From: Patescibacteria group bacterium
Lineage (GTDB): Bacteria > Patescibacteriota > Patescibacteriia > JAHJFT01
Assembly: GCA_028710985.1 (NCBI GenBank)
Contig: JAQTTB010000001.1
Location: 88,021-152,020 of the forward strand
Direction of reading: 5' to 3'
DNA length: 64,000 nt
Shown here: positions 10,258 through 61,772 of the stretch, in pieces
Numbering within the stretch: the stretch's first letter is position 1
Layout of the letters: each line of letters starts with the position of its first letter
Program-made: the position numbers and the translations under genes
The notes under the pieces: model-generated
The model's input: only the letters and a program-made list of their open reading frames with translations
Told to the model about the DNA's origin: nothing
The model's database searches: none

Positions 10258-10707
10258 ATGCCCGCCATCAGTATCAACAAAAAAGGCCTGCACAATTACG
10301 AAATCCTGGAACGCTTCGAGGCCGGCATTGTTTTATCCGGCCAGGAGGTTAAATCCGTAAAAGGCGGCCAGATGCACCTGGACGGCGCCTATGTCCGCGT
10401 CCGCGGCGGCGAGGCCTGGCTCGTTGGCGCCGAAATCCCAAAATACCGCTTCGCCGGCCCTCTGCCGGATTACGACGCCCAGCGCACCCGCAAGCTCCTG
10501 TTCCGCAAGCGGGAAATCCGTTATTTAACCGGAAAAACCCAAGAAAAGGGGTTGACACTCGTGCCGGTTTCAGTGTATACTTCACGAAGTAAAATTAAGT
10601 TGGAAATCGGGCTGGCGCGTGGCCGGCAAAGCCATGATAAGCGCGATGTAATGAAAGAACGCGATGTCAAGCGCCAAATTGCCCGAGCCCTTAAAAGGGG
10701 GATGTAA
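10258..10707 (+). CDS. smpB: SsrA-binding protein SmpB.
   Basis: GQEVKSVKGGQMHLDGAYV ... RTRKLLFRKREI ... KIKLEIGLARGRQSHDKRD. It lies directly upstream of the tmRNA gene. Confidence 0.9.
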   Translation: MPAISINKKGLHNYEILERFEAGIVLSGQEVKSVKGGQMHLDGAYVRVRGGEAWLVGAEIPKYRFAGPLPDYDAQRTRKLLFRKREIRYLTGKTQEKGLTLVPVSVYTSRSKIKLEIGLARGRQSHDKRDVMKERDVKRQIARALKRGM

Positions 10708-11087
10708 AAGAATCGATAGGAGATCCTTTCATTGGATGCGAACCAAGGGCGGCCCGAACCTTGCAAATCCTCGGCCAATCAACAAATGCCAATTTCATGG
10801 CGAGAGTGAAGAGCGCTTTCAGCGTTCCTTCATTCCAAATGGCTATCGCATAAAATCGATGGCCCATCCGACCCGGTTAAGCTTGCTCACCGGGAGCCGG
10901 GTGTCATATCTGCAAGCTCGGCTCCTGCCGCTGCTCGCGGCCGGAACTTAAACAACCCAGAGCTCGTTTCGGTGTAATTTTGTCGGATTTCCTACCATCG
11001 AAATTAAAAAATCAAATCCGGACATGTTCGTAGAATTCCAATGGATCGGCTCACTAGACAGGGGTGCGATTCCCCTCATCTCCACCA
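10698..11087 (+). ncRNA. ssrA: tmRNA (ssrA), standard one-piece form.
   Basis: 5' end GGGGAUG...GAAUCGAUAGG is tRNA-like. 3' end GGGGUGCGAUUCCCCUCAUCUCCACCA gives a T-arm plus acceptor strand. The acceptor pairs GGGGAUG with CAUCUCC, including a G3-U70 Ala identity pair. Length about 390 nt, adjacent to smpB; the 5' end overlaps the smpB stop. Confidence 0.65.
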
Positions 11088-11217
11088 AACAGTTCATGCA
11101 GCCAAGAGTATTCAATATTTATCGATCGGGGTATTAATAGTAGTCCAAGGAATCGCACGGGCGCGAGAGTCCCGACGAAATGTCGGGACGGTGCGCAGCG
11201 CCCCGGACCCCGAGCGG

Positions 11218-11250
11218 AGCGAGGGGCGATTCCCCTCATCTCCACCAATT
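11218..11250 (+). repeat. Direct duplicate of the tmRNA T-arm, 3' acceptor strand and CCA (23 nt identical: GCGATTCCCCTCATCTCCACCAA). It lies 135 bp downstream of the intact 3' end, the arrangement expected for an att site.
   Basis: Compare 11066-11088 with 11226-11248. Confidence 0.6.
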
Positions 11251-13252: not shown

Positions 13253-13292
13253 GCGGACCGTACGGGATTCGAACCCGTGGTCTCCTCCGTGA
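13253..13292 (-). repeat. Copy of the 3' 40 nt of tRNA-Asp (anticodon-stem 3' half through acceptor 3' strand). It is flanked by a CTGCGG/CCGCAG inverted repeat and followed by a U-run on the minus strand.
   Basis: Identical to 13361-13400 of the intact tRNA and about 68 nt away from it. Confidence 0.55.
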
Positions 13293-13359
13293 TCCCGCAG
13301 CTCGCTCGCTTCGCTCGCGAGTGCAGGACAGGCAGGAAGGCGCAAAATAAAAAAATCTC

Positions 13360-13439
13360 AGCGGACCGTACGGGATTCGAACCCGTGGTCTCCTCCGTGA
13401 CAGGGAGGCGTGTTAAACCAGGCTACACCAACGGTCCGC
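13360..13439 (-). tRNA. tRNA-Asp (anticodon GUC).
   Basis: Reverse complement: GCGGACCGTTGGTGTAGCCTGGTTTAACACGCCTCCCTGTCACGGAGGAGACCACGGGTTCGAATCCCGTACGGTCCGCT. Cloverleaf with anticodon loop CUGUCAC. No encoded CCA. Confidence 0.85.
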
Positions 13440-13497
13440 TGAGATTTTTTTAAAGAACTAGGTTAGCGTGCTTGTCCCGCACCCTTGCGGTGCGGGA

Positions 13498-13524
13498 TTA
13501 AACCAGGCTACACCAACGGTCCGC
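13498..13524 (-). repeat. 27-nt copy of the tRNA-Asp 5' half (acceptor 5' strand plus D-arm), fused to a GC hairpin (TCCCGCACC-GCAAG-GGTGCGGGA).
   Basis: ttaaaccaggctacaccaacggtccgc is identical to 13413-13439. Confidence 0.45.
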
Positions 13525-13620
13525 GATGGAATTTTTTATGTCCATAGTTTATCAAAACAGCATCAAATTGACAAGGGGTCGGGAATAAAAAAACGCACCA
13601 AGGGGTGCGTTCTGAAGAAC

Positions 13621-16755: not shown

Positions 16756-16775
16756 GGGTCGCATATATGCGACCC
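16756..16775. repeat. Palindromic 20-mer GGGTCGCATATATGCGACCC (first copy), lying 1 nt from the pyk stop.
   Basis: The same core recurs at 47249-47268 and 52328-52349. Confidence 0.6.
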
Positions 16776-19979: not shown

Positions 19980-20058
19980 AAGATGCCCATATTCTACCAA
20001 ATTTTTTACATAAAATAAAGTAGGGATCGCCGATTTGCGATCCCTACTAAAAATATTT

Positions 20059-21252: not shown

Positions 21253-21426
21253 AAAATTTGTTGAATAAATTATTTATGCAATCTGCTATCTTCAAACCGC
21301 TATCCCTTATAGGATATAATTATCAAAATTCAATGTCAAGCTAATATAAACACGTAGGGGGCGCCCCGACGGATCGTCGGGGCGCCCCCTACATAATAAT
21401 ATAATAATAATTTTTTTATCAACCGC

Positions 21427-37920: not shown

Positions 37921-39270
37921 TTATTCAGTTCCCTGCCCGAGCTTTTTCAGAACCTCGCGGACCGCCTTTTTCTGGTCAACGATTTCCTGGATGCCAGCCT
38001 CCATGTCCCGAATTAGAATTGTGCCGTCCAACACCTCTTTTTGACCTAAGATTAGCGAAAATTTAACTCCGAGACGATTGGCAACTTCAAGCTGGGCTTT
38101 GAGCGAATCCTTGGAAAAAGCTTCAGACAACTTGATGCCTGCCCGGCGAAAATCTTCAAAAAGGCTGATTGCCTTGATACGCGCCTGTTCGCCAAGCTGG
38201 GCAAAAAATATTTTGGGCACTTCATACTCAGGAACCGGGATATTTTTGTCTTTGAGATGACTCACCACTCTCTCCACCCCGATCGCGAATCCGCAGGCCG
38301 GGGTTGGCCGACCGCCCAGAGTTTCAACCAATAAATCGTATCGCCCGCCGCCGCCCAACGCCGACTGGCGCAATTCCTCATCTTCATCCTCAGACCATAT
38401 TTCAAAAACCGTACGGGTATAGTAATCCAGTCCGCGAACTAAGAATGGGTTAAGAATATACGGAACTTCGGCCTCATCCAGGCATTCAAGCACTTTCATG
38501 AAATGATTTTTACTATCCTCGTCCAGCCAATCCACGATCTGAGGCGCCTCGCCCCTAATCCCCTGGCAGCCGGGCTCCTTGCAGTCCAAAAGACGCAACG
38601 GATTTTTGTTCAGCCGTTTCTTGCATTCCTCGCACAACTGGCCGCGGTGCGCCCGGTAATAATTAACCAGCTCAACCTTGAACGCCTGCCTTGACTCCGG
38701 CATGCCCAGGCTGTTTATCTGCACCGTTACCGGCAGGCCCAGTTCTTTAAAAAAATTGTAAGCAATGACAATAAGTTGGGCATCAACCACCGAACTCGCT
38801 TCGCCGACTGCCTCAAGCCCAAACTGGTGAAATTCCCGATAGCGACCGGACTGCGGCCGGTCGTGGCGGAACATCGGCCCCCAATACCATAGTTTGACCG
38901 GCTGCGGCAAATTGAGCATGCCGTGATTGACGTACGCCCGGACGATTGAAGCCGTTGCCTCGGGACGCAATGAAACGTTGTCTCCGCTCATATCTTGAAA
39001 AGAATATAGTTCTTTTTCCACAATATCCGTATCGCGGCCCACCGAACGGATGAATAAAGTCGTTTCCTCCAAAACCGGGGTCTCAATTCGGCCATATGAA
39101 TAATCCCGCGCCAATTTACTTATTATATTATAAATGTGGCTCCAGTATTTTTCTTCAGCGGGCAGAACATCCTTCATGCCGCGCAAAAGCTGAGGCATGT
39201 GGCTCTGCCGTTTTGCCGGCACCGCCTTTGGCTTAGCCGGTCCTTTATCAATTTTTGCTTTTTTGACCAT
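37921..39270 (-). CDS. hisS: Histidyl-tRNA synthetase.
   Basis: LRGMKDVLP ... LRPEATASIVRAY ... GGGGRYDLL. An alternative start exists at 39198 (MPQLLRG). Confidence 0.85.
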   Translation of the reverse strand: MVKKAKIDKGPAKPKAVPAKRQSHMPQLLRGMKDVLPAEEKYWSHIYNIISKLARDYSYGRIETPVLEETTLFIRSVGRDTDIVEKELYSFQDMSGDNVSLRPEATASIVRAYVNHGMLNLPQPVKLWYWGPMFRHDRPQSGRYREFHQFGLEAVGEASSVVDAQLIVIAYNFFKELGLPVTVQINSLGMPESRQAFKVELVNYYRAHRGQLCEECKKRLNKNPLRLLDCKEPGCQGIRGEAPQIVDWLDEDSKNHFMKVLECLDEAEVPYILNPFLVRGLDYYTRTVFEIWSEDEDEELRQSALGGGGRYDLLVETLGGRPTPACGFAIGVERVVSHLKDKNIPVPEYEVPKIFFAQLGEQARIKAISLFEDFRRAGIKLSEAFSKDSLKAQLEVANRLGVKFSLILGQKEVLDGTILIRDMEAGIQEIVDQKKAVREVLKKLGQGTE

Positions 39271-39284
39271 ATCCTTGGAAATAT

Positions 39285-39893
39285 TTATATATTATACTCC
39301 GGTGATTGAAACATCTTGAGCTTATTGACCGGCCAGCCGCGCAGCCAAACCCGCCCGACGATATAATCGCGGTTTACCGGCCCGAAACTCCGCGAGTCAA
39401 GGCTCGAACCGCGGTTATCACCCAACACATAATATTCATCGCCTCTTAGTTTTACCTTCTTCTGACCGGCAGTATAGACATTTTCAAGATATTCTTCCTG
39501 CATTTCTGTGCCTTCGGCGTTACCTTCATTATAGACAAATACCTGGCCGTCTTTGATTTCGATTGTTTCATTCGGCAATCCAATCACCCTTTTTATAAAA
39601 TACTGCTTCGGATCGGCCGGATACCGAAAAACAATAATGTCACCGCGATCCGGATCGCCGAGGCGGTAACTCAATTCATCGATAATCAAATATTCGTGAT
39701 CATAAAAATTCGGCTCCATGGAAGCGCCCTTCACGTAAAAAGGCTGTATCAAAAAGTAGCGGATCGGAATAATAATTGCGAGCGAAATCGCCACGACCTG
39801 GACAATCTCAAAAATAAAACCAACTGCAACCGCGGCCGTGCTCTTTGGCCTAAGAATTTCCTCTTCCGGCTTATTTTTCTTAAAAAATCCCAT
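39285..39893 (-). CDS. lepB: Signal peptidase I (LepB, S26 family).
   Basis: GASMEPNF ... GDNRGSSLDSRSFGPV. Start taken at MGFFKKNK; the upstream in-frame segment overlaps tRNA-derived repeats and is rejected. Confidence 0.8.
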   Translation of the reverse strand: MGFFKKNKPEEEILRPKSTAAVAVGFIFEIVQVVAISLAIIIPIRYFLIQPFYVKGASMEPNFYDHEYLIIDELSYRLGDPDRGDIIVFRYPADPKQYFIKRVIGLPNETIEIKDGQVFVYNEGNAEGTEMQEEYLENVYTAGQKKVKLRGDEYYVLGDNRGSSLDSRSFGPVNRDYIVGRVWLRGWPVNKLKMFQSPEYNI

Positions 39894-39935
39894 AAAGTAA
39901 TTTTGATATTTGTTATTCTCGGGCTCGCTCCATGG

Positions 39936-40053
39936 TGGGCAACGTCCCGACCCGTCGGGACGACCTTTCCGAATGATTTTAGACAATGGGCAACGCTGGA
40001 CTCTCCGCCCGAGGCGGACCCGCCCCTGGCGGGGAACCAGCGACCTTTCCGAA
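39936..40053 (-). repeat. Two tandem degenerate copies of the tRNA-Val 3' half (anticodon-stem 3' side through GTTGCCCA). Each follows a 13-nt linker TTGTCTAAAATCA. In each copy the T-arm is replaced or interrupted by a GC-rich hairpin.
   Basis: An 80-nt periodic repeat: cgacctttccgaatgattttagacaatgggcaacgctggactc occurs at 39961-40002 and again at 40041-40082. Confidence 0.6.
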
Positions 40054-40066
40054 TGATTTTAGACAA

Positions 40067-40140
40067 TGGGCAACGCTGGACTCGAACCAGCGACCTTTCC
40101 GATGTGAACGGAACGCTCTAACCAGCTGAGCTAGTTGCCC
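40067..40140 (-). tRNA. tRNA-Val (anticodon CAC).
   Basis: Reverse complement: GGGCAACTAGCTCAGCTGGTTAGAGCGTTCCGTTCACATCGGAAAGGTCGCTGGTTCGAGTCCAGCGTTGCCCA. Confidence 0.85.
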
Positions 40141-40282
40141 GGACGATTATTCCCCAATATATCACGCCGTGAGCTAAAAATCAAGCCGTAAAATATCAGG
40201 AAATTAAGCCATCCGCCACTACTGGAAAAATATCCGGAAATGTACTATAATTTACCCAAAACAACATAATATCCACAAAGCA

Positions 40283-41758
40283 ATGAGCGTCGACCTCCTC
40301 CCGGACAACAAACTCTCCGAATCCAGAAAGGGATTATTTTTTTTCGGCAGAATATTCATTATCGTGCTGATAATCTTTGCAGTAACGGCCGGAGTTTTTT
40401 CTTATAAAATCGTCGCCTCCGAACAAGCGGCCGACGAGGGCATCATGAGCCGCATTTCCCGTTTGCCGGTGTTTAGCGGCCTCAAATTCCTGACCGGCAC
40501 AGCCGAGCGCGGCCTGCGCGGTCAGAACGAAAATCGCATTAATTTTCTTCTGCTCGGAATCGGCGGCGCCGGCCACGAAGGCCCGGATCTCACCGATACG
40601 ATCATCATGGCGAGCCTCCGCCCCTCCGACGGCCGTGTCTCAATGCTTTCCATACCGCGCGATCTTTCCGTGGATATCCCCGGATACGGATGGCGGAAAA
40701 TCAATCATGCCAATGCGTTCGGCGAATGGGACAAAGAAGGCCAGGGCCCGATCCTCGCAAGTCAGGTCGTTTCCAATATCACTGGCCAGCCAATACATTA
40801 CTACGTTCGCGTAGATTTTGACGGCTTCGTTGAATTCATTAACGAAATCGGCGGCATTGATGTTTATGTGGAAAAAAGCTTCACCGATTATTCTTACCCT
40901 AACGGCGATAATAAATACCAGGTTGTATCCTTTGAGGAGGGCCTGCAAAATATGGACGGCGAAGCGGCTTTAAAATTCGTGCGGTCGCGCCATGGCACCA
41001 ACGGCGAGGCTTCGGATTTTGCGCGAAGCCGCCGCCAGCAGCTCGTCATCGCCGCGGTAAAAAACAAAATACTGACGCCGTCGGTTATGCTGAATCCAAA
41101 AAAAATCTTAAGCCTTTATGAATCCGTACAAAAAAGCGTTGAAACGAATCTGACTACCCGCGAAATCTTGCTTCTTGCAAACATTGGATTGCGCGTCGAT
41201 GCGAATAATATCGACAACATCGTACTCGATGCCGGTCCGTCAAGTCCGCTCTACGCCACAAGCATCGACGGCGCCTACATGATATTGCCGCGGGGCGGGA
41301 CCTGGGACAATGTGCGCGCGATCGCCGCCAATATGTTTGAAAAAAATTCCGACGGATCCGCACAGACTTCAACCGGAGCGGCCGGAACCGGAGAGCCGGA
41401 AAAAATCCGCGTTGAAATCCAGAACGGCACTGCTCTTTCCGGCCTCGCCTACTCGGCATCCATGCTGCTCAAAGAAAATAATTTTGAAATCGTAAAAATC
41501 GGCAATGCCGAAAAGCGAGATTTCGCAAAAAGCGTCGTTTTTGATCTGACCCAGGGAAAAAAATCCGAAGATCTTGCCCTTCTGCGCTCGCTACTCGCGG
41601 CCGATGTCTCCATCTCTACCTCGGGCTGGATATTCACATCAACTATCGTACCGAGCGAGGTGACGCTCACTGACGAAAATTCAAAGATTAAAACCACGGC
41701 CGAAAATGTTGATTTTCTGGTTATCCTCGGCATGGAAAGTAAAAATATTCTACAATGA
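40283..41758 (+). CDS. LytR-CpsA-Psr (LCP) family cell-envelope phosphotransferase.
   Basis: N-terminal transmembrane helix. NFLLLGIGGAGHEGPDLTDTIIMASL ... LSIPRDLSVDIPGYG ... FVRSRH. Confidence 0.85.
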   Translation: MSVDLLPDNKLSESRKGLFFFGRIFIIVLIIFAVTAGVFSYKIVASEQAADEGIMSRISRLPVFSGLKFLTGTAERGLRGQNENRINFLLLGIGGAGHEGPDLTDTIIMASLRPSDGRVSMLSIPRDLSVDIPGYGWRKINHANAFGEWDKEGQGPILASQVVSNITGQPIHYYVRVDFDGFVEFINEIGGIDVYVEKSFTDYSYPNGDNKYQVVSFEEGLQNMDGEAALKFVRSRHGTNGEASDFARSRRQQLVIAAVKNKILTPSVMLNPKKILSLYESVQKSVETNLTTREILLLANIGLRVDANNIDNIVLDAGPSSPLYATSIDGAYMILPRGGTWDNVRAIAANMFEKNSDGSAQTSTGAAGTGEPEKIRVEIQNGTALSGLAYSASMLLKENNFEIVKIGNAEKRDFAKSVVFDLTQGKKSEDLALLRSLLAADVSISTSGWIFTSTIVPSEVTLTDENSKIKTTAENVDFLVILGMESKNILQ

Positions 41759-52315: not shown

Positions 52316-52362
52316 AAATAAAAACGCAGGGGTCGCATATATGCGACCCCTGCGTTTTTTTA
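52316..52362. terminator. Bidirectional terminator built on the GGGGTCGCATATATGCGACCCC palindrome.
   Basis: aaaaacgcaggggtcgcatatatgcgacccctgcgttttttt, between convergent genes. Confidence 0.65.
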
Positions 52363-59973: not shown

Positions 59974-60320
59974 AAATTGCCGTCCTCGCCCGCCACACCA
60001 AAATTTTGGCTAATTTTAGCAAAAAAAGACGGTTCTGCAAATAGACGGGGTTCTTCGCCAGAGGCGAATCTGCCTCAGGCATGACCCAATGCCTCCATGA
60101 ATAAAACTCGCTTGGATGAAAAAACGTAAATGTAGGAGCAGGTCTTGCGCCTGCCCCCATTCGTTTGTCATCATGTAGGGGTTGATTGCAATCAACCCCT
60201 ACGAAATGCGGTTGCTCCAAAATGCGCACACAAAAATAAAAAAAATTCCCGCGCAGACAGAATGTCCACGCAGGAAAAAGCGTACGCGTCCAAGGGCCAA
60301 GAGACCAAGGGACCGAGAGC

Positions 60321-61083: not shown

Positions 61084-61662
61084 CGTCATTCCCTCCCCCG
61101 CTTTCGCGAGGGTAAACTCCAGCGGGAATCTTGCTAAAAAATCTTGGTGTCATCTGTCATTCCCGCGAAGGCGGGAATCCAAGTTCAATATACCGGGGGA
61201 ATCCTATTGAATATTATCGTACAAATCGCTCCAGAGAGGATTAAAATCTTCAATTATTCTAATTTTCCAATTACGTTTCCATTTTTTTAATTGTTTTTCC
61301 CGTAATATGGCCTCCTCAATATTATCGAATATTTCATAATAGACAAGTTTGTGCACGCCATATTGAGCCGTGAATATGCTATCTTCTCCTTGCTTATGCT
61401 CAAGAACTCGGCGCTTAAGATTATTCGTTACACCGATATAAAGAGTACCGTTTCTGTCGCTTGCGAGGATATAAATATAGAATTGTCGATAATCGGGCAT
61501 TTGTGCGATTGATGTATCTTGGCGGCTTATAGTATCTGGATTCCCGCCTTCGCGGGAATGACGGATGTGCGGTTTATTTTTATCCGTTGCAACTAAATAA
61601 ATTACCATGGGCATGGATTCCCGCTGGAGTTTACCCTCGCGAAAGCGGGGGCGGGAATGACG
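61084..61662. mobile_element. Candidate miniature mobile cassette: a GIY-YIG gene framed by nested inverted repeats. Outer 47-bp pair (46/47 identical) at 61084-61130 and 61616-61662. Inner 25-bp pair (25/25 identical) at 61156-61180 and 61538-61562.
   Basis: cgtcattccctcccccgctttcgcgagggtaaactccagcgggaatc versus its reverse complement. gtcattcccgcgaaggcgggaatcc versus its reverse complement. Extra GGGAATGAC motifs extend to 61738. Confidence 0.45.
61204..61500 (-). CDS. Small GIY-YIG nuclease-domain protein (UPF0213/YhbQ-like).
   Basis: FYIYILASDRNGTLYIGVTNNLKRRVLEHKQG ... EKQLKKWKRNWKIRII. Confidence 0.75.
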   Translation of the reverse strand: MPDYRQFYIYILASDRNGTLYIGVTNNLKRRVLEHKQGEDSIFTAQYGVHKLVYYEIFDNIEEAILREKQLKKWKRNWKIRIIEDFNPLWSDLYDNIQ

Positions 61663-61772
61663 ATAGGTTGAATAGTGTTTCTACCGTCTAAATTCCCGCC
61701 GGAGCCTGTAGTACATATGCGAATGGGGCGGGAATGACAGAGAGATGCGTTCCAATATACTCCCTTCCCACC

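What the first reader, a model, noticed from the sequence alone, without database searches (positions are those of the whole stretch)
39936..40140. tRNA-Val followed by two tandem degenerate 3'-half copies, each with a GC hairpin substituted in the T-arm
Downstream of tRNA-Val(CAC) lies an 80-nt periodic array. Each unit is: 13-nt linker UUGUCUAAAAUCA, then UUCGGAAAGGUCG (anticodon-stem 3' side), then a novel GC-rich hairpin (CCCGCCAGGGGCGGGUCCGCCUCGGGCGGAG or UCCCGACGGGUCGGGAC) in place of the T-loop, then GUUGCCCA (acceptor 3' end). The array ends 43 nt before the lepB start. Serial integrase scars would normally enclose cargo. These units enclose only 13 nt. They may instead be a tRNA-derived structured repeat, such as a processing or terminator element or a mini-MITE.
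Basis: seen in the sequence. Interest (0 to 1): 0.5.

Follow-up and report, generated by a model that had tools for sequence, protein, structure and literature searches.

The report
Dead tRNA-Val halves carrying mobile hairpins
Behind a working tRNA-Val gene of a Patescibacteria (CPR) genome lie two orphaned copies of its 3' half, best explained as leftovers of local partial duplications, and one of them carries a 30-base palindromic mobile element that also occurs at more than 120 places in metagenome DNA, mostly in frame inside protein genes.

Summary
It lies on the minus strand: tRNA-Val(CAC) at 40140-40067, then twice a 13-nt linker plus a copy of the tRNA from T38 to A73.

- Copy 2 keeps its T-stem. 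It has a precise 30-nt insertion between C56 and G57 of the T-loop.
- Only copy 3 has its T-arm replaced by a hairpin.
- Only the last copy is followed by CCA.

Relatives date the array. Three genomes with about 80% HisRS identity have one tRNA-Val-CCA and no extra copies. A 95% relative has one extra copy with the same insertion. The window has two.

The linker resembles the ancestral trailer after CCA. I therefore read the array as partial tandem duplication with a breakpoint in the anticodon loop (37/38), not as integrase scars and not as a dedicated RNA element.

The 30-nt insert is two tandem 15-nt palindromes, TCCGCCnnnGGCGGA twice. It is a mobile element. It is present or absent as a 10-codon insertion in EngA of close relatives. 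It matched at least 120 metagenome stretches. It is mostly in the frame that encodes SAxGGSAxGG, or it sits in hairpin loops, including loops of other dead tRNA copies.

Partial tRNA copies joined to GC hairpins also flank tRNA-Asp and tmRNA in this window, and 15% of tRNA genes in 2.1 Mb of mostly Patescibacteria DNA. I found no description of either phenomenon in the paper library.

The parts
40067..40140 (-). Intact tRNA-Val(CAC). It ends GTTGCCCA and has no encoded CCA.
   Evidence: ARAGORN; Rfam RF00005, 68.2 bits over the full model.
40156..40184 (-). Promoter-like site (TTGATT-17-TATATT with TG) just upstream of the tRNA. It is the likely start of a tRNA-array-lepB transcript.
   Evidence: Consensus scan only. 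No promoter-like or terminator-like site on the minus strand lies inside the array.
40054..40066 (-). Linker 1, TTGTCTAAAATCA. I read it as the first 13 nt of the ancestral 3' trailer.
   Evidence: Compare the trailers after CCA in relatives: L010 TTGTATAAAAAATT, L007 TTGAAATAAAAAATT. The L014 linker is TTGTCAAAAAATA.
39987..40053 (-). Orphan copy 2: tRNA positions 38-73 (exact copy) with a 30-nt insertion in the T-loop.
   Evidence: The orthologous copy in L014 shows 0 differences in the 36 tRNA-derived nt.
40004..40033 (.). 30-nt double-hairpin mobile element, CCCGCCAGGGGCGGG + TCCGCCTCGGGCGGA, inserted precisely between C56 and G57.
   Evidence: Two perfect 6-bp hairpins. The same family occurs as a 10-codon insertion in EngA of L007, with an identical second half. 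At least 120 metagenome stretches match. There is a strong frame bias.
39974..39986 (-). Linker 2, identical to linker 1.
   Evidence: It is part of the 43-nt exact repeat.
39936..39973 (-). Orphan copy 3: TTCGGAAAGGTCG + hairpin + GTTGCCCA. The T-arm is replaced.
   Evidence: This copy is absent from L014.
39944..39960 (.). Single GC hairpin TCCCGAC GGG TCGGGA(C), of the TCCCGAC...GTCGGGA family.
   Evidence: The same stem occurs beside the tmRNA 3'-end copy (11169-11189) and beside a tRNA-Thr fragment in L215. There are 5 copies in 2.1 Mb against about 0.05 expected.
39933..39935 (-). Encoded CCA after the last orphan copy only. It marks the position of the ancestral tRNA 3' end.
   Evidence: The single tRNA-Val genes of L005, L007 and L010 end CCCACCA, 23-47 nt before lepB.
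39894..39932 (-). Trailer between CCA and lepB: a 15-nt GC-rich piece, then the AT-rich ancestral spacer.
   Evidence: Alignment with L014. This stretch is much more diverged between the two genomes than the array.
39285..39893 (-). lepB (signal peptidase I), the first gene downstream, followed by hisS.
   Evidence: ORF list. Pfam Peptidase_S26 on the orthologues.

Best explanation
The array is genomic debris, not a dedicated device. Only the first unit is a working gene.

Step 1 (shown). The ancestor had one tRNA-Val(CAC) with encoded CCA a few tens of bases upstream of lepB.

Step 2 (inferred from sequence). A partial tandem duplication copied the segment from the anticodon loop (after position 37), through the 3' end, to about 13 nt of trailer. 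The result is an intact gene followed by trailer (now the 'linker') and an orphan 3' half. The proximal copy later lost CCA, which is an easy slippage on CCACCA.

Step 3 (shown). A 30-nt mobile double-hairpin element inserted precisely into the T-loop of the orphan.

Step 4 (inferred). The array reached three 3' halves in the window, with a hairpin of a second family replacing the T-arm of the last one. This happened either by a further round in the window lineage or, alternatively, by loss of one unit in the 95% relative.

Step 5 (inferred). Gene conversion with the live gene keeps the tRNA-derived parts and the 43-nt junction identical.

Step 6 (inferred). The insertions interrupt the homology, so they protect orphans from deletion by recombination. 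This would explain why surviving orphans so often carry hairpins.

Step 7 (inferred). The array is probably co-transcribed between the tRNA and lepB. I see no sign that it is needed there.
For: Phylogenetic series:
- 0 extra copies in L005, L007 and L010, which have about 80% HisRS identity and the same synteny.
- 1 extra copy in L014, at 95% HisRS identity.
- 2 extra copies in the window.

CCA follows only the distal copy. The relatives' single genes encode CCA.

The linker resembles the ancestral trailer that follows CCA.

The unit junction is repeated exactly over 43 nt.

The same polarity recurs elsewhere, with 5' parts upstream and 3' parts downstream, and with breakpoints in the D, anticodon and T loops. 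It is seen at tRNA-Asp in this window and at 16 of 105 tRNA/tmRNA genes in 2.1 Mb of mostly Patescibacteria DNA.

The 30-nt insert is mobile DNA:
- An exact 10-codon presence/absence in EngA, L007 against L010, L005 and the window.
- At least 120 metagenome stretches and 2 viral contigs match.
- 83 of 102 copies in long open stretches are in the SAxGGSAxGG frame, P = 2.5e-23.
- Other copies sit in loops of dead tRNA copies (L113 anticodon loop, L154 D-loop).
- None lies in an intact tRNA, 0 of 130.

No terminator-like or promoter-like site lies in the array on the coding strand.
Against: - Copy 2 and its insert are more conserved between the window and L014 than neutral sites. The insert differs at 1 of 30 positions and the flanks at 0 of 36, against 27% divergence at four-fold sites; P is about 0.001 for the insert alone. 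Gene conversion explains the flanks but not the insert.
- The last copy is followed by CCA plus a 15-nt GC-rich piece, not by a third linker. A simple duplication therefore needs extra steps.
- Copy 3 cannot be derived from copy 2 by one deletion.
- The similarity between linker and trailer rests on 13 AT-rich bases.
- Clearly nested tRNA genes with foreign inner copies exist in other genomes (L076). A cassette-replacement origin therefore cannot be excluded.
- No transcript data are available.
Confidence: 0.58

Rival explanations
1. Disrupt-and-replace by a tRNA-carrying cassette. A mobile cassette carrying its own tRNA-Val, perhaps driven by a tRNA-linked GIY-YIG homing endonuclease, inserted into the anticodon loop of the resident gene. 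Recombination between the outer and inner 5' halves then removed the left part. What remains is the inner tRNA, a 13-nt right flank and the old 3' half with its CCA. A second round added another unit.
For: - L076 holds a complete tRNA-Val(CAC) with a different sequence inside the anticodon loop (37/38) of another tRNA-Val. The insert is bracketed by complementary GC arms, CCTGCCCGCCAT/ATGGCAGGCGGG.
- The same layout (5' fragment, arm, intact tRNA, arm, 3' fragment) occurs at L215 tRNA-Thr and at the window's tRNA-Asp.
- GIY-YIG ORFs (Pfam PF01541) sit between tRNA copies in L063 and L072.
- 5 of 9 GIY-YIG ORFs in 2.1 Mb lie within 32 nt of a tRNA gene.
- The break position, 37/38, is the same as in L076.
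- The live gene lacks CCA, while the old end has it.
Against: - No GIY-YIG ORF, no GC arms and no 5' fragment occur at the Val locus.
- The window's only GIY-YIG gene lies 21 kb away, at 61204-61500.
- The linker looks like the ancestral trailer rather than foreign DNA.
- The orphan copies share the acceptor strand of the live gene.
Confidence: 0.17
2. Serial tyrosine-integrase attachment-site scars. Islands integrated into the 3' half of tRNA-Val, each displacing the old 3' end, and their cargo was later deleted down to 13 nt.
For: - The repeated block runs from the anticodon loop to the 3' end. From my own knowledge (Williams 2002, Nucleic Acids Res), this is the classic sublocation of integrase target sites in tRNA genes.
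- tmRNA, another classic target, also has a displaced 3' end in this window.
- CCA sits only on the distal fragment.
Against: - There is no integrase or cargo between the repeats.
- The two 13-nt 'cargoes' are identical and look like native trailer.
- Scans of viral contigs for both junctions found nothing.
- In this clade, upstream 5' fragments are about as common as downstream 3' fragments. Integrases do not produce that pattern.
- Precise excision would leave no scar, and random deletion to exactly 13 nt twice is improbable.
Confidence: 0.08
3. A functional structured RNA or DNA element in the tRNA-lepB-hisS leader. The orphan 3' halves with hyperstable hairpins could act in processing, in stabilising the downstream mRNA, as a decoy, or as a protein-binding palindrome.
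For: - Copy 2 plus insert differs at 1 of 66 positions between the window and L014, against 27% divergence at four-fold sites. The one difference is in a hairpin loop.
- The closing pair of the first hairpin is C-G instead of the family's T-A, so the change preserves the pairing.
- The same design, a double hairpin inserted at TTC^GAGT in a 3' fragment right after the live gene, recurs with unrelated hairpin sequences at tRNA-Lys in L138.
- The region folds better than shuffled sequence, z = -3.6.
Against: - The array is absent from the 80% relatives, which have the same operon.
- Copy number varies between close relatives.
- There is no U-tract, and no Rfam family matches beyond the tRNA itself.
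- The insert belongs to a family scattered through coding sequences and unrelated hairpin loops.
- The orphan halves lack a 5' acceptor strand, so they cannot form a tRNA-like substrate on their own.
Confidence: 0.13
4. Assembly artefact: a mis-joined repeat in a metagenome-assembled genome.
For: Short-read assemblers do break here. Logan contigs of the same strain end inside the array.
Against: - The three copies differ by large specific indels, so they are not collapsed or expanded identical repeats.
- Both edges agree base for base with independent assemblies (L001, L004).
- A different genome (L014) spans the tRNA end, the linker, copy 2 with the same insert, CCA and lepB.
Confidence: 0.03

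Closest known systems
tRNA and tmRNA gene 3'-end duplications left by integrative elements (attL/attR direct repeats). From my own knowledge: Williams 2002, Nucleic Acids Res 30:866.
   Same: The direct repeat covers the tRNA from the anticodon loop to the 3' end. The displaced old end lies downstream of a live gene. tmRNA in the same window is affected too.
   Different: No cargo or integrase is present. The linkers are identical and resemble native trailer. 5' fragments lie upstream of other tRNAs. The spacers are 13-135 nt and are made of GC palindromes.
Rickettsia palindromic elements (RPE). From my own knowledge: Ogata et al. 2000, Science 290:347.
   Same: A small palindromic repeat inserted in frame into conserved protein genes and into RNA genes, tolerated as an extra peptide loop, with presence/absence between relatives.
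   Different: This element is only 30 nt, against roughly 100-150 nt for RPE. It is two tandem 15-nt perfect hairpins. It reads the same way on both strands and gives SAxGGSAxGG in either orientation. It is found in Patescibacteria.
Very small mobile repeated elements (SDR, 21-27 nt) of Nostoc and other cyanobacteria. From my own knowledge: Elhai et al. 2008, Genome Res 18:1484.
   Same: Mobile repeats under 30 nt with a conserved hairpin structure, compensatory changes and nested insertions. L215 shows hairpins inside hairpin loops.
   Different: The sequence family and the phylum are different. Here there is a strong in-frame coding bias, and insertion into loops of dead tRNA copies.
REP/REPIN sequences mobilised by RAYT transposases
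   Same: GC-rich extragenic palindromes that occur as doublets.
   Different: The family has no GTAG head. The doublet is two directly adjacent hairpins. Most copies are inside ORFs. No RAYT was sought or found here.
Free-standing GIY-YIG homing endonuclease SegB in the T4 tRNA gene cluster (PMC2330249), and SegB-driven segmental amplification (PMC13096335, from the abstract only)
   Same: A GIY-YIG nuclease gene lies among tRNA genes, and breaks in that region promote copying or amplification of tRNA-region segments. In Patescibacteria, 5 of 9 small GIY-YIG ORFs abut tRNA genes.
   Different: No nuclease gene lies at the Val locus. The link is statistical, seen in other loci, and untested.
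Group I introns in the anticodon loops of Patescibacteria tRNA genes (PMC13011429)
   Same: Same phylum, and the interruption lies in the anticodon loop of a tRNA gene.
   Different: No ribozyme is present: Rfam finds no intron here. The interruptions here are duplications and 15-30-nt palindromes. The paper's text has no occurrence of 'duplicat', 'nested', 'hairpin' or 'GIY', and its uses of 'fragment' are unrelated.

Membership tests
Integrase att-site scar at a tRNA gene | Direct repeat of the tRNA 3' part, starting in the anticodon or T loop and running to the 3' end | tested here: met
   The copies start at T38 and end at A73.
Integrase att-site scar at a tRNA gene | An integrase gene or element cargo between the repeats, or a recognisable remnant of one | tested here: not met
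   Only 13 nt lie between the repeats, and they are identical in both units. No ORF is present.
Integrase att-site scar at a tRNA gene | A matching attP (linker fused to the 3' half) on a mobile element elsewhere | tested here: inconclusive
   There were 0 hits in viral contigs for either junction. Plasmids, islands and metagenomes were not scanned for it.
Partial tandem duplication | Head-to-tail units that include native flanking sequence | tested here: met
   The junction is an exact 43-nt repeat. The linker resembles the trailer after CCA in L010 and L007. The similarity rests on only 13 AT-rich nt.
Partial tandem duplication | Copy number varies among close relatives | tested here: met
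   0 copies at 80% HisRS identity, 1 at 95%, 2 in the window.
Miniature palindromic mobile element (the 30-nt insert) | Many dispersed copies with conserved arms in unrelated contexts | tested here: met
Miniature palindromic mobile element (the 30-nt insert) | Presence/absence at an orthologous site with clean boundaries | tested here: met
   EngA of L007 has an exact extra SAKGGSASGG. L010, L005 and the window lack it.
Miniature palindromic mobile element (the 30-nt insert) | An identified enzyme that moves it (transposase, RAYT or nuclease) | not tested
   No candidate was examined. The association of GIY-YIG genes with related hairpins (window 61.1-61.7 kb) is only a lead.
REP/REPIN | A conserved GTAG head next to the palindrome, in extragenic locations | tested here: not met
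   The flanks are TT|element|AA. 102 of 128 copies lie in open stretches of at least 100 codons.
Intrinsic terminator | A GC-rich hairpin followed by a U-tract on the transcribed strand | tested here: not met
   No minus-strand terminator-like site lies between 39936 and 40066. The hairpins are followed by GAGTCC or GTTGCC.
tRNA intron (group I) | A ribozyme core, hundreds of nt long, in the anticodon loop | tested here: not met
   Rfam finds only the tRNA in 39000-41000 at E-value up to 10, and no intron in the window at gathering score. The insert is 30 nt and lies in the T-loop.
GIY-YIG homing cassette at a tRNA gene | A GIY-YIG ORF adjacent to or overlapping the tRNA | tested here: not met
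   There is none at the Val locus. The feature is present at L063, L072, L128, L203 and L066.

The most novel reading that the evidence does not exclude
Patescibacteria may carry two previously undescribed features.

(a) An ultra-small (30-nt) double-hairpin mobile element. It reads the same way on both strands and so always adds the harmless peptide SAxGGSAxGG when it lands in a gene. It also lands in loops of DNA hairpins, including tRNA loops.

(b) A pervasive break-and-duplicate dynamic at tRNA and tmRNA genes, possibly driven by the small GIY-YIG nucleases that abut tRNA genes. This dynamic would leave nested genes, or arrays of orphan halves, capped by GC palindromes.

On this reading, the Val array is a fossil record of that process. 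The unusual conservation of the insert would reflect an activity that maintains the element, or a function the host has recruited.
Probability: 0.4. Interest if true: 0.75.

Novelty: new variant of a known kind. Interest (0 to 1): 0.6.

Why it matters
Taken alone, the Val array is a small curiosity. Following it up exposed two broader things.

1. A 30-nt palindromic mobile element is widespread in ultra-small bacteria, which are thought to be under strong pressure to streamline their genomes. It inserts in frame into conserved proteins such as EngA. This would be the shortest in-frame selfish DNA I know of. It also matters for annotation and for protein alignments of these organisms.

2. tRNA and tmRNA genes in this clade are hot spots of partial duplication, nesting and hairpin insertion. 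About 15% of them carry fragments within 1 kb. Small GIY-YIG nuclease genes are strongly enriched right next to tRNA genes.

This gives a concrete, testable system for asking how essential single-copy RNA genes survive attack by mobile DNA in minimal genomes. It also warns that tRNA fragments in these genomes should not be read as integrase scars by default.

Tried and rejected
- Tandem Repeats Finder on 39500-40600 found nothing, because the units differ by large indels.
- Searches of the window for further copies of the 13-nt linker, the start of the 3' half and each hairpin found only the array itself. The whole unit is therefore not a dispersed repeat.
- Scans of viral contigs for both linker junctions gave 0 hits.
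- An exact-protein look-up of lepB failed. The hisS, LCP and L20 look-ups returned only same-strain contigs, which break at the repeats.
- ARAGORN with introns allowed did not recover the outer genes of nested tRNAs.
- ARAGORN also missed the tmRNA that Rfam finds.
- Terminator and promoter readings are rejected on the consensus scan.
- A group I intron remnant is rejected, since Rfam has no hit and the size is wrong.
- An archaeal-type split or intron-containing tRNA was considered and rejected. The organism is bacterial, and the outer copies lack parts of the anticodon arm.
- Full-text searches found no description of the element or of tRNA fragments and nesting in Patescibacteria. One search call was malformed.
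- I could not derive copy 3 from copy 2 by simple deletions. I could not decide whether the window gained a unit or L014 lost one.

Full report
**1. What is there**

The window comes from a Patescibacteria (CPR) genome. Its HisRS and IF-3 hit proteins that NCBI names Patescibacteria, Uhrbacteria or Magasanikbacteria. An identical IF-3 sits on a 744,538-bp NCBI MAG contig.

tRNA-Val(CAC) is on the minus strand at 40140->40067 (ARAGORN; Rfam 68 bits).

Reading the minus strand, the layout is:
- The tRNA, ...GGTCGCTGGTTCGAGTCCAGCGTTGCCCA, with no CCA.
- TTGTCTAAAATCA.
- TTCGGAAAGGTCGCTGGTTC [CCCGCCAGGGGCGGG TCCGCCTCGGGCGGA] GAGTCCAGCGTTGCCCA (copy 2).
- TTGTCTAAAATCA.
- TTCGGAAAGGTCG TCCCGACGGGTCGGGAC GTTGCCCA (copy 3).
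- CCA.
- 39 nt.
- The lepB ATG at 39893.

The repeat finder reports a 43-nt exact repeat at spacing 80 and a 19-nt repeat.

- Copy 2 keeps its T-stem. It carries a clean 30-nt insertion between C56 and G57.
- Only copy 3 has the T-arm replaced.
- Only the last copy is followed by CCA.

Homology to the tRNA begins at T38, so the breakpoint is in the anticodon loop at 37/38.

Independent Logan assemblies of the same strain end at the repeats but agree on both edges. An assembly artefact is unlikely.

**2. Relatives**

Synteny is conserved: LCP (divergent), tRNA-Val, lepB, hisS.
- Three genomes with 79-80% HisRS identity (L005, L007, L010) have a single tRNA-Val that ends CCCACCA, 23-47 nt before lepB. 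They have no extra copies.
- A genome with 95% HisRS identity (L014) has the tRNA end, a 13-nt linker TTGTCAAAAAATA, and one orphan copy with the same T-loop insertion. CCA and lepB follow.

The array thus arose after the split from the 80% relatives. Copy number differs between close relatives.

The linkers (window TTGTCTAAAATCA, L014 TTGTCAAAAAATA) resemble the trailer that follows CCA in the 80% relatives: L010 TTGTATAAAAAATT, L007 TTGAAATAAAAAATT. The simplest origin is a partial tandem duplication of the segment from position 38 to the 3' end plus CCA plus about 13 nt of trailer. The proximal CCA would then be lost, which is easy slippage on CCACCA. This similarity rests on few AT-rich bases, and I treat it as suggestive.

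**3. The hairpins are mobile palindromes**

Searching fetched Patescibacteria loci for CCGCC...GGCGG hairpins showed the same design, two tandem 15-nt palindromes TCCGCCnnnGGCGGA, in several unrelated loci.

One copy lies inside the EngA gene of L007. The protein alignment shows an exact extra SAKGGSASGG that is absent from L010, L005 and the window. Its second half, TCCGCCTCGGGCGGA, is identical to the second half of the Val insert.

Among 128 copies:
- 102 lie in open stretches of at least 100 codons.
- 83 of those are in the frame that gives SAxGGSAxGG, P = 2.5e-23. Because the element has the same form on both strands, either orientation gives this peptide.
- The flanks are strongly TT|element|AA.
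- From the flanks listed, several non-coding copies appear to sit in loops of pre-existing hairpins.
- Two sit in loops of dead tRNA copies: the L113 anticodon loop and the L154 D-loop.
- None sits in an intact tRNA, 0 of 130.

The Val copy is a variant whose first hairpin closes with C-G instead of T-A, so pairing is preserved.

The copy-3 hairpin (TCCCGAC..GTCGGGA) belongs to a second small family. It has 5 copies in 2.1 Mb against about 0.05 expected. Three of them lie beside tRNA or tmRNA fragments.

**4. The phenomenon is general**

In this window, tRNA-Asp (13437->13361) is flanked by two fragments of itself:
- Upstream, an exact 25-nt 5' fragment followed by the hairpin TCCCGCACC GCAA GGGTGCGGGA.
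- Downstream, an exact 39-40-nt 3' fragment preceded by a long GC hairpin.

The tmRNA (Rfam, 10698-11087) has a second copy of its 3' end at 11221-11247. It is preceded by GTCCCGAC GAAAT GTCGGGAC.

In 207 loci (2.1 Mb), 16 of 105 tRNA/tmRNA genes have a fragment of themselves within 1 kb. 5' parts lie upstream and 3' parts downstream. Breakpoints fall in the D, anticodon and T loops.

Some cases are truly nested. L076 has a complete, different tRNA-Val inside the anticodon loop of another, bracketed by complementary GC arms. L215 and the window's Asp share this layout.

L138 repeats the Val copy-2 design, a double hairpin at TTC^GAGT of a 3' fragment right after the live gene, but with unrelated hairpin sequences.

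Small GIY-YIG ORFs (Pfam PF01541) lie between tRNA copies in L063 and L072. Five of nine such ORFs in the data set are within 32 nt of a tRNA gene. The window's own GIY-YIG gene (61204-61500) is not next to a tRNA. It is surrounded by ATTCCCGC..GCGGGAAT hairpin repeats.

**5. Interpretation**

Best-supported reading: the array consists of orphan 3' halves produced by local partial duplication, with a break in the anticodon loop. Small mobile palindromes later inserted into them.

Survivorship explains the association:
- Insertions into the live gene are lethal, so they are seen only in orphans.
- Insertions interrupt homology, so orphans that carry them resist deletion.

Gene conversion with the live gene explains the perfect identity of the tRNA-derived parts.

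The integrase reading fails on four counts:
- There is no cargo.
- The linkers look native.
- No matching attP was found in viral contigs.
- 5' fragments are abundant in the clade.

A cassette-replacement origin, as in L076, remains possible.

A functional reading cannot be dismissed. Between the window and L014, four-fold sites differ by 27% (70 of 261). The 30-nt insert differs at 1 position, in a loop (P about 0.001), and the flanks at 0 of 36. Against it stand the absence of the array from the 80% relatives, the variable copy number, the lack of terminator features and the lack of any Rfam match.

**6. Novelty**

Full-text searches found nothing on this element, or on tRNA fragments or nesting in Patescibacteria. 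The nearest paper describes group I introns in their tRNA anticodon loops (PMC13011429).

The closest known kinds are Rickettsia palindromic elements, cyanobacterial SDR elements, REP sequences and integrase att scars. These comparisons are from my own knowledge and were not tested here. SegB-type GIY-YIG activity in phage tRNA clusters (PMC2330249, PMC13096335) is a further parallel.

I rate this a new variant of known kinds. The locus itself is of moderate interest. The broader pattern it exposes is of higher interest.

Noticed in passing
window 13253-13527 (minus strand): tRNA-Asp(GTC) is flanked by fragments of itself. Upstream lies an exact 25-nt 5' fragment followed by the hairpin TCCCGCACC GCAA GGGTGCGGGA. 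Downstream lies an exact 39-40-nt 3' fragment (from the anticodon loop) preceded by a long GC hairpin. The insert ends are inverted repeats, TCCCGCA...TGCGGGA. In the relative L222 the tRNA-Asp is single but sits between CCCGCA and TGCGGG arms.
   Followed up: partly
window 10698-11247 (plus strand): Rfam finds a tmRNA that ARAGORN missed. About 135 nt downstream, just before infC, lies a second copy of its T-arm, acceptor strand and CCA (11221-11247), preceded by a GC-rich stretch with the hairpin GTCCCGAC GAAAT GTCGGGAC. This whole extra piece is shared with L222 (IF-3 64% identical), where the hairpin sequence differs but still pairs. It is absent from L219 (67% identical). It may be an old scar or a small tRNA-like-domain RNA.
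   Followed up: partly
L007:824-854 and metagenome loci L097-L218: A 30-nt double hairpin (TCCGCCnnnGGCGGA twice) is inserted in frame into EngA of one relative only. It matched at least 120 metagenome stretches. 83 of 102 copies in long open stretches are in the SAxGGSAxGG frame. The flanks are TT|..|AA. In several listed copies the 3 nt just before the element are ATG.
   Followed up: yes
L076:1-330 (minus), L215:6430-6850 (minus), L138:4830-5040 (minus): Nested or decorated tRNA genes in other Patescibacteria. L076 has a full tRNA-Val inside the anticodon loop of another tRNA-Val, with 12-nt GC arms. L215 has tRNA-Thr with two tandem 5' fragments, complementary arms, and a 156-nt cluster of hairpins, one nested in another's loop, before a 3' fragment that starts in the T-loop. 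L138 has tRNA-Lys followed by a T-loop double hairpin of unrelated sequence.
   Followed up: partly
L063:5836-6090, L072:4117-4377, L128, L203, L066: Small (about 85 aa) GIY-YIG nuclease ORFs abut or overlap the 5' end of tRNA genes, 5 of 9 in 2.1 Mb. In L063 and L072 they lie between an intact tRNA and partial copies.
   Followed up: partly
window 61085-61735 (minus strand): The window's only GIY-YIG gene (about 61204-61500) is surrounded by five copies of a hairpin repeat of the type GTCATTCCCGC...GCGGGAATGAC. No tRNA fragment was seen there.
   Followed up: no
window 20019-20048, 21354-21392, 60175-60202; 16756-16775 and 52320-52359: Long perfect palindromes of the form GTAGGG...CCCTAC occur, with up to 18 bp of stem. 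The core GGGTCGCATATATGCGACCC occurs twice. These may be further repeat families or terminators.
   Followed up: no
L022 (downstream of tRNA-Val at 2375-2448) and L072:4345-4413: Pseudo-tRNAs in which the anticodon arm is replaced by a perfect GC palindrome: CCCCGCAGTACTGCGGGG in L022 and CCCGCCTAGGCGGG in L072. This is the same kind of arm-for-hairpin substitution as in Val copy 3.
   Followed up: no
L018-L027 and other loci from the species-representative genome collection: Many contigs whose HisRS is 55-62% identical to this Patescibacteria protein, and which have the same gene neighbourhood, are titled 'uncultured Gammaproteobacteria bacterium'. The record titles look wrong.
   Followed up: no
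L014:118-132 compared with window 40141-40160: In the 95% relative, the 15 nt after the distal CCA (TGGGAATCGTCCGGG) resemble the sequence just upstream of the live tRNA-Val in the window (GGGGAATAATCGTCC|GGG). This may be a trace of a whole-gene tandem copy.
   Followed up: no
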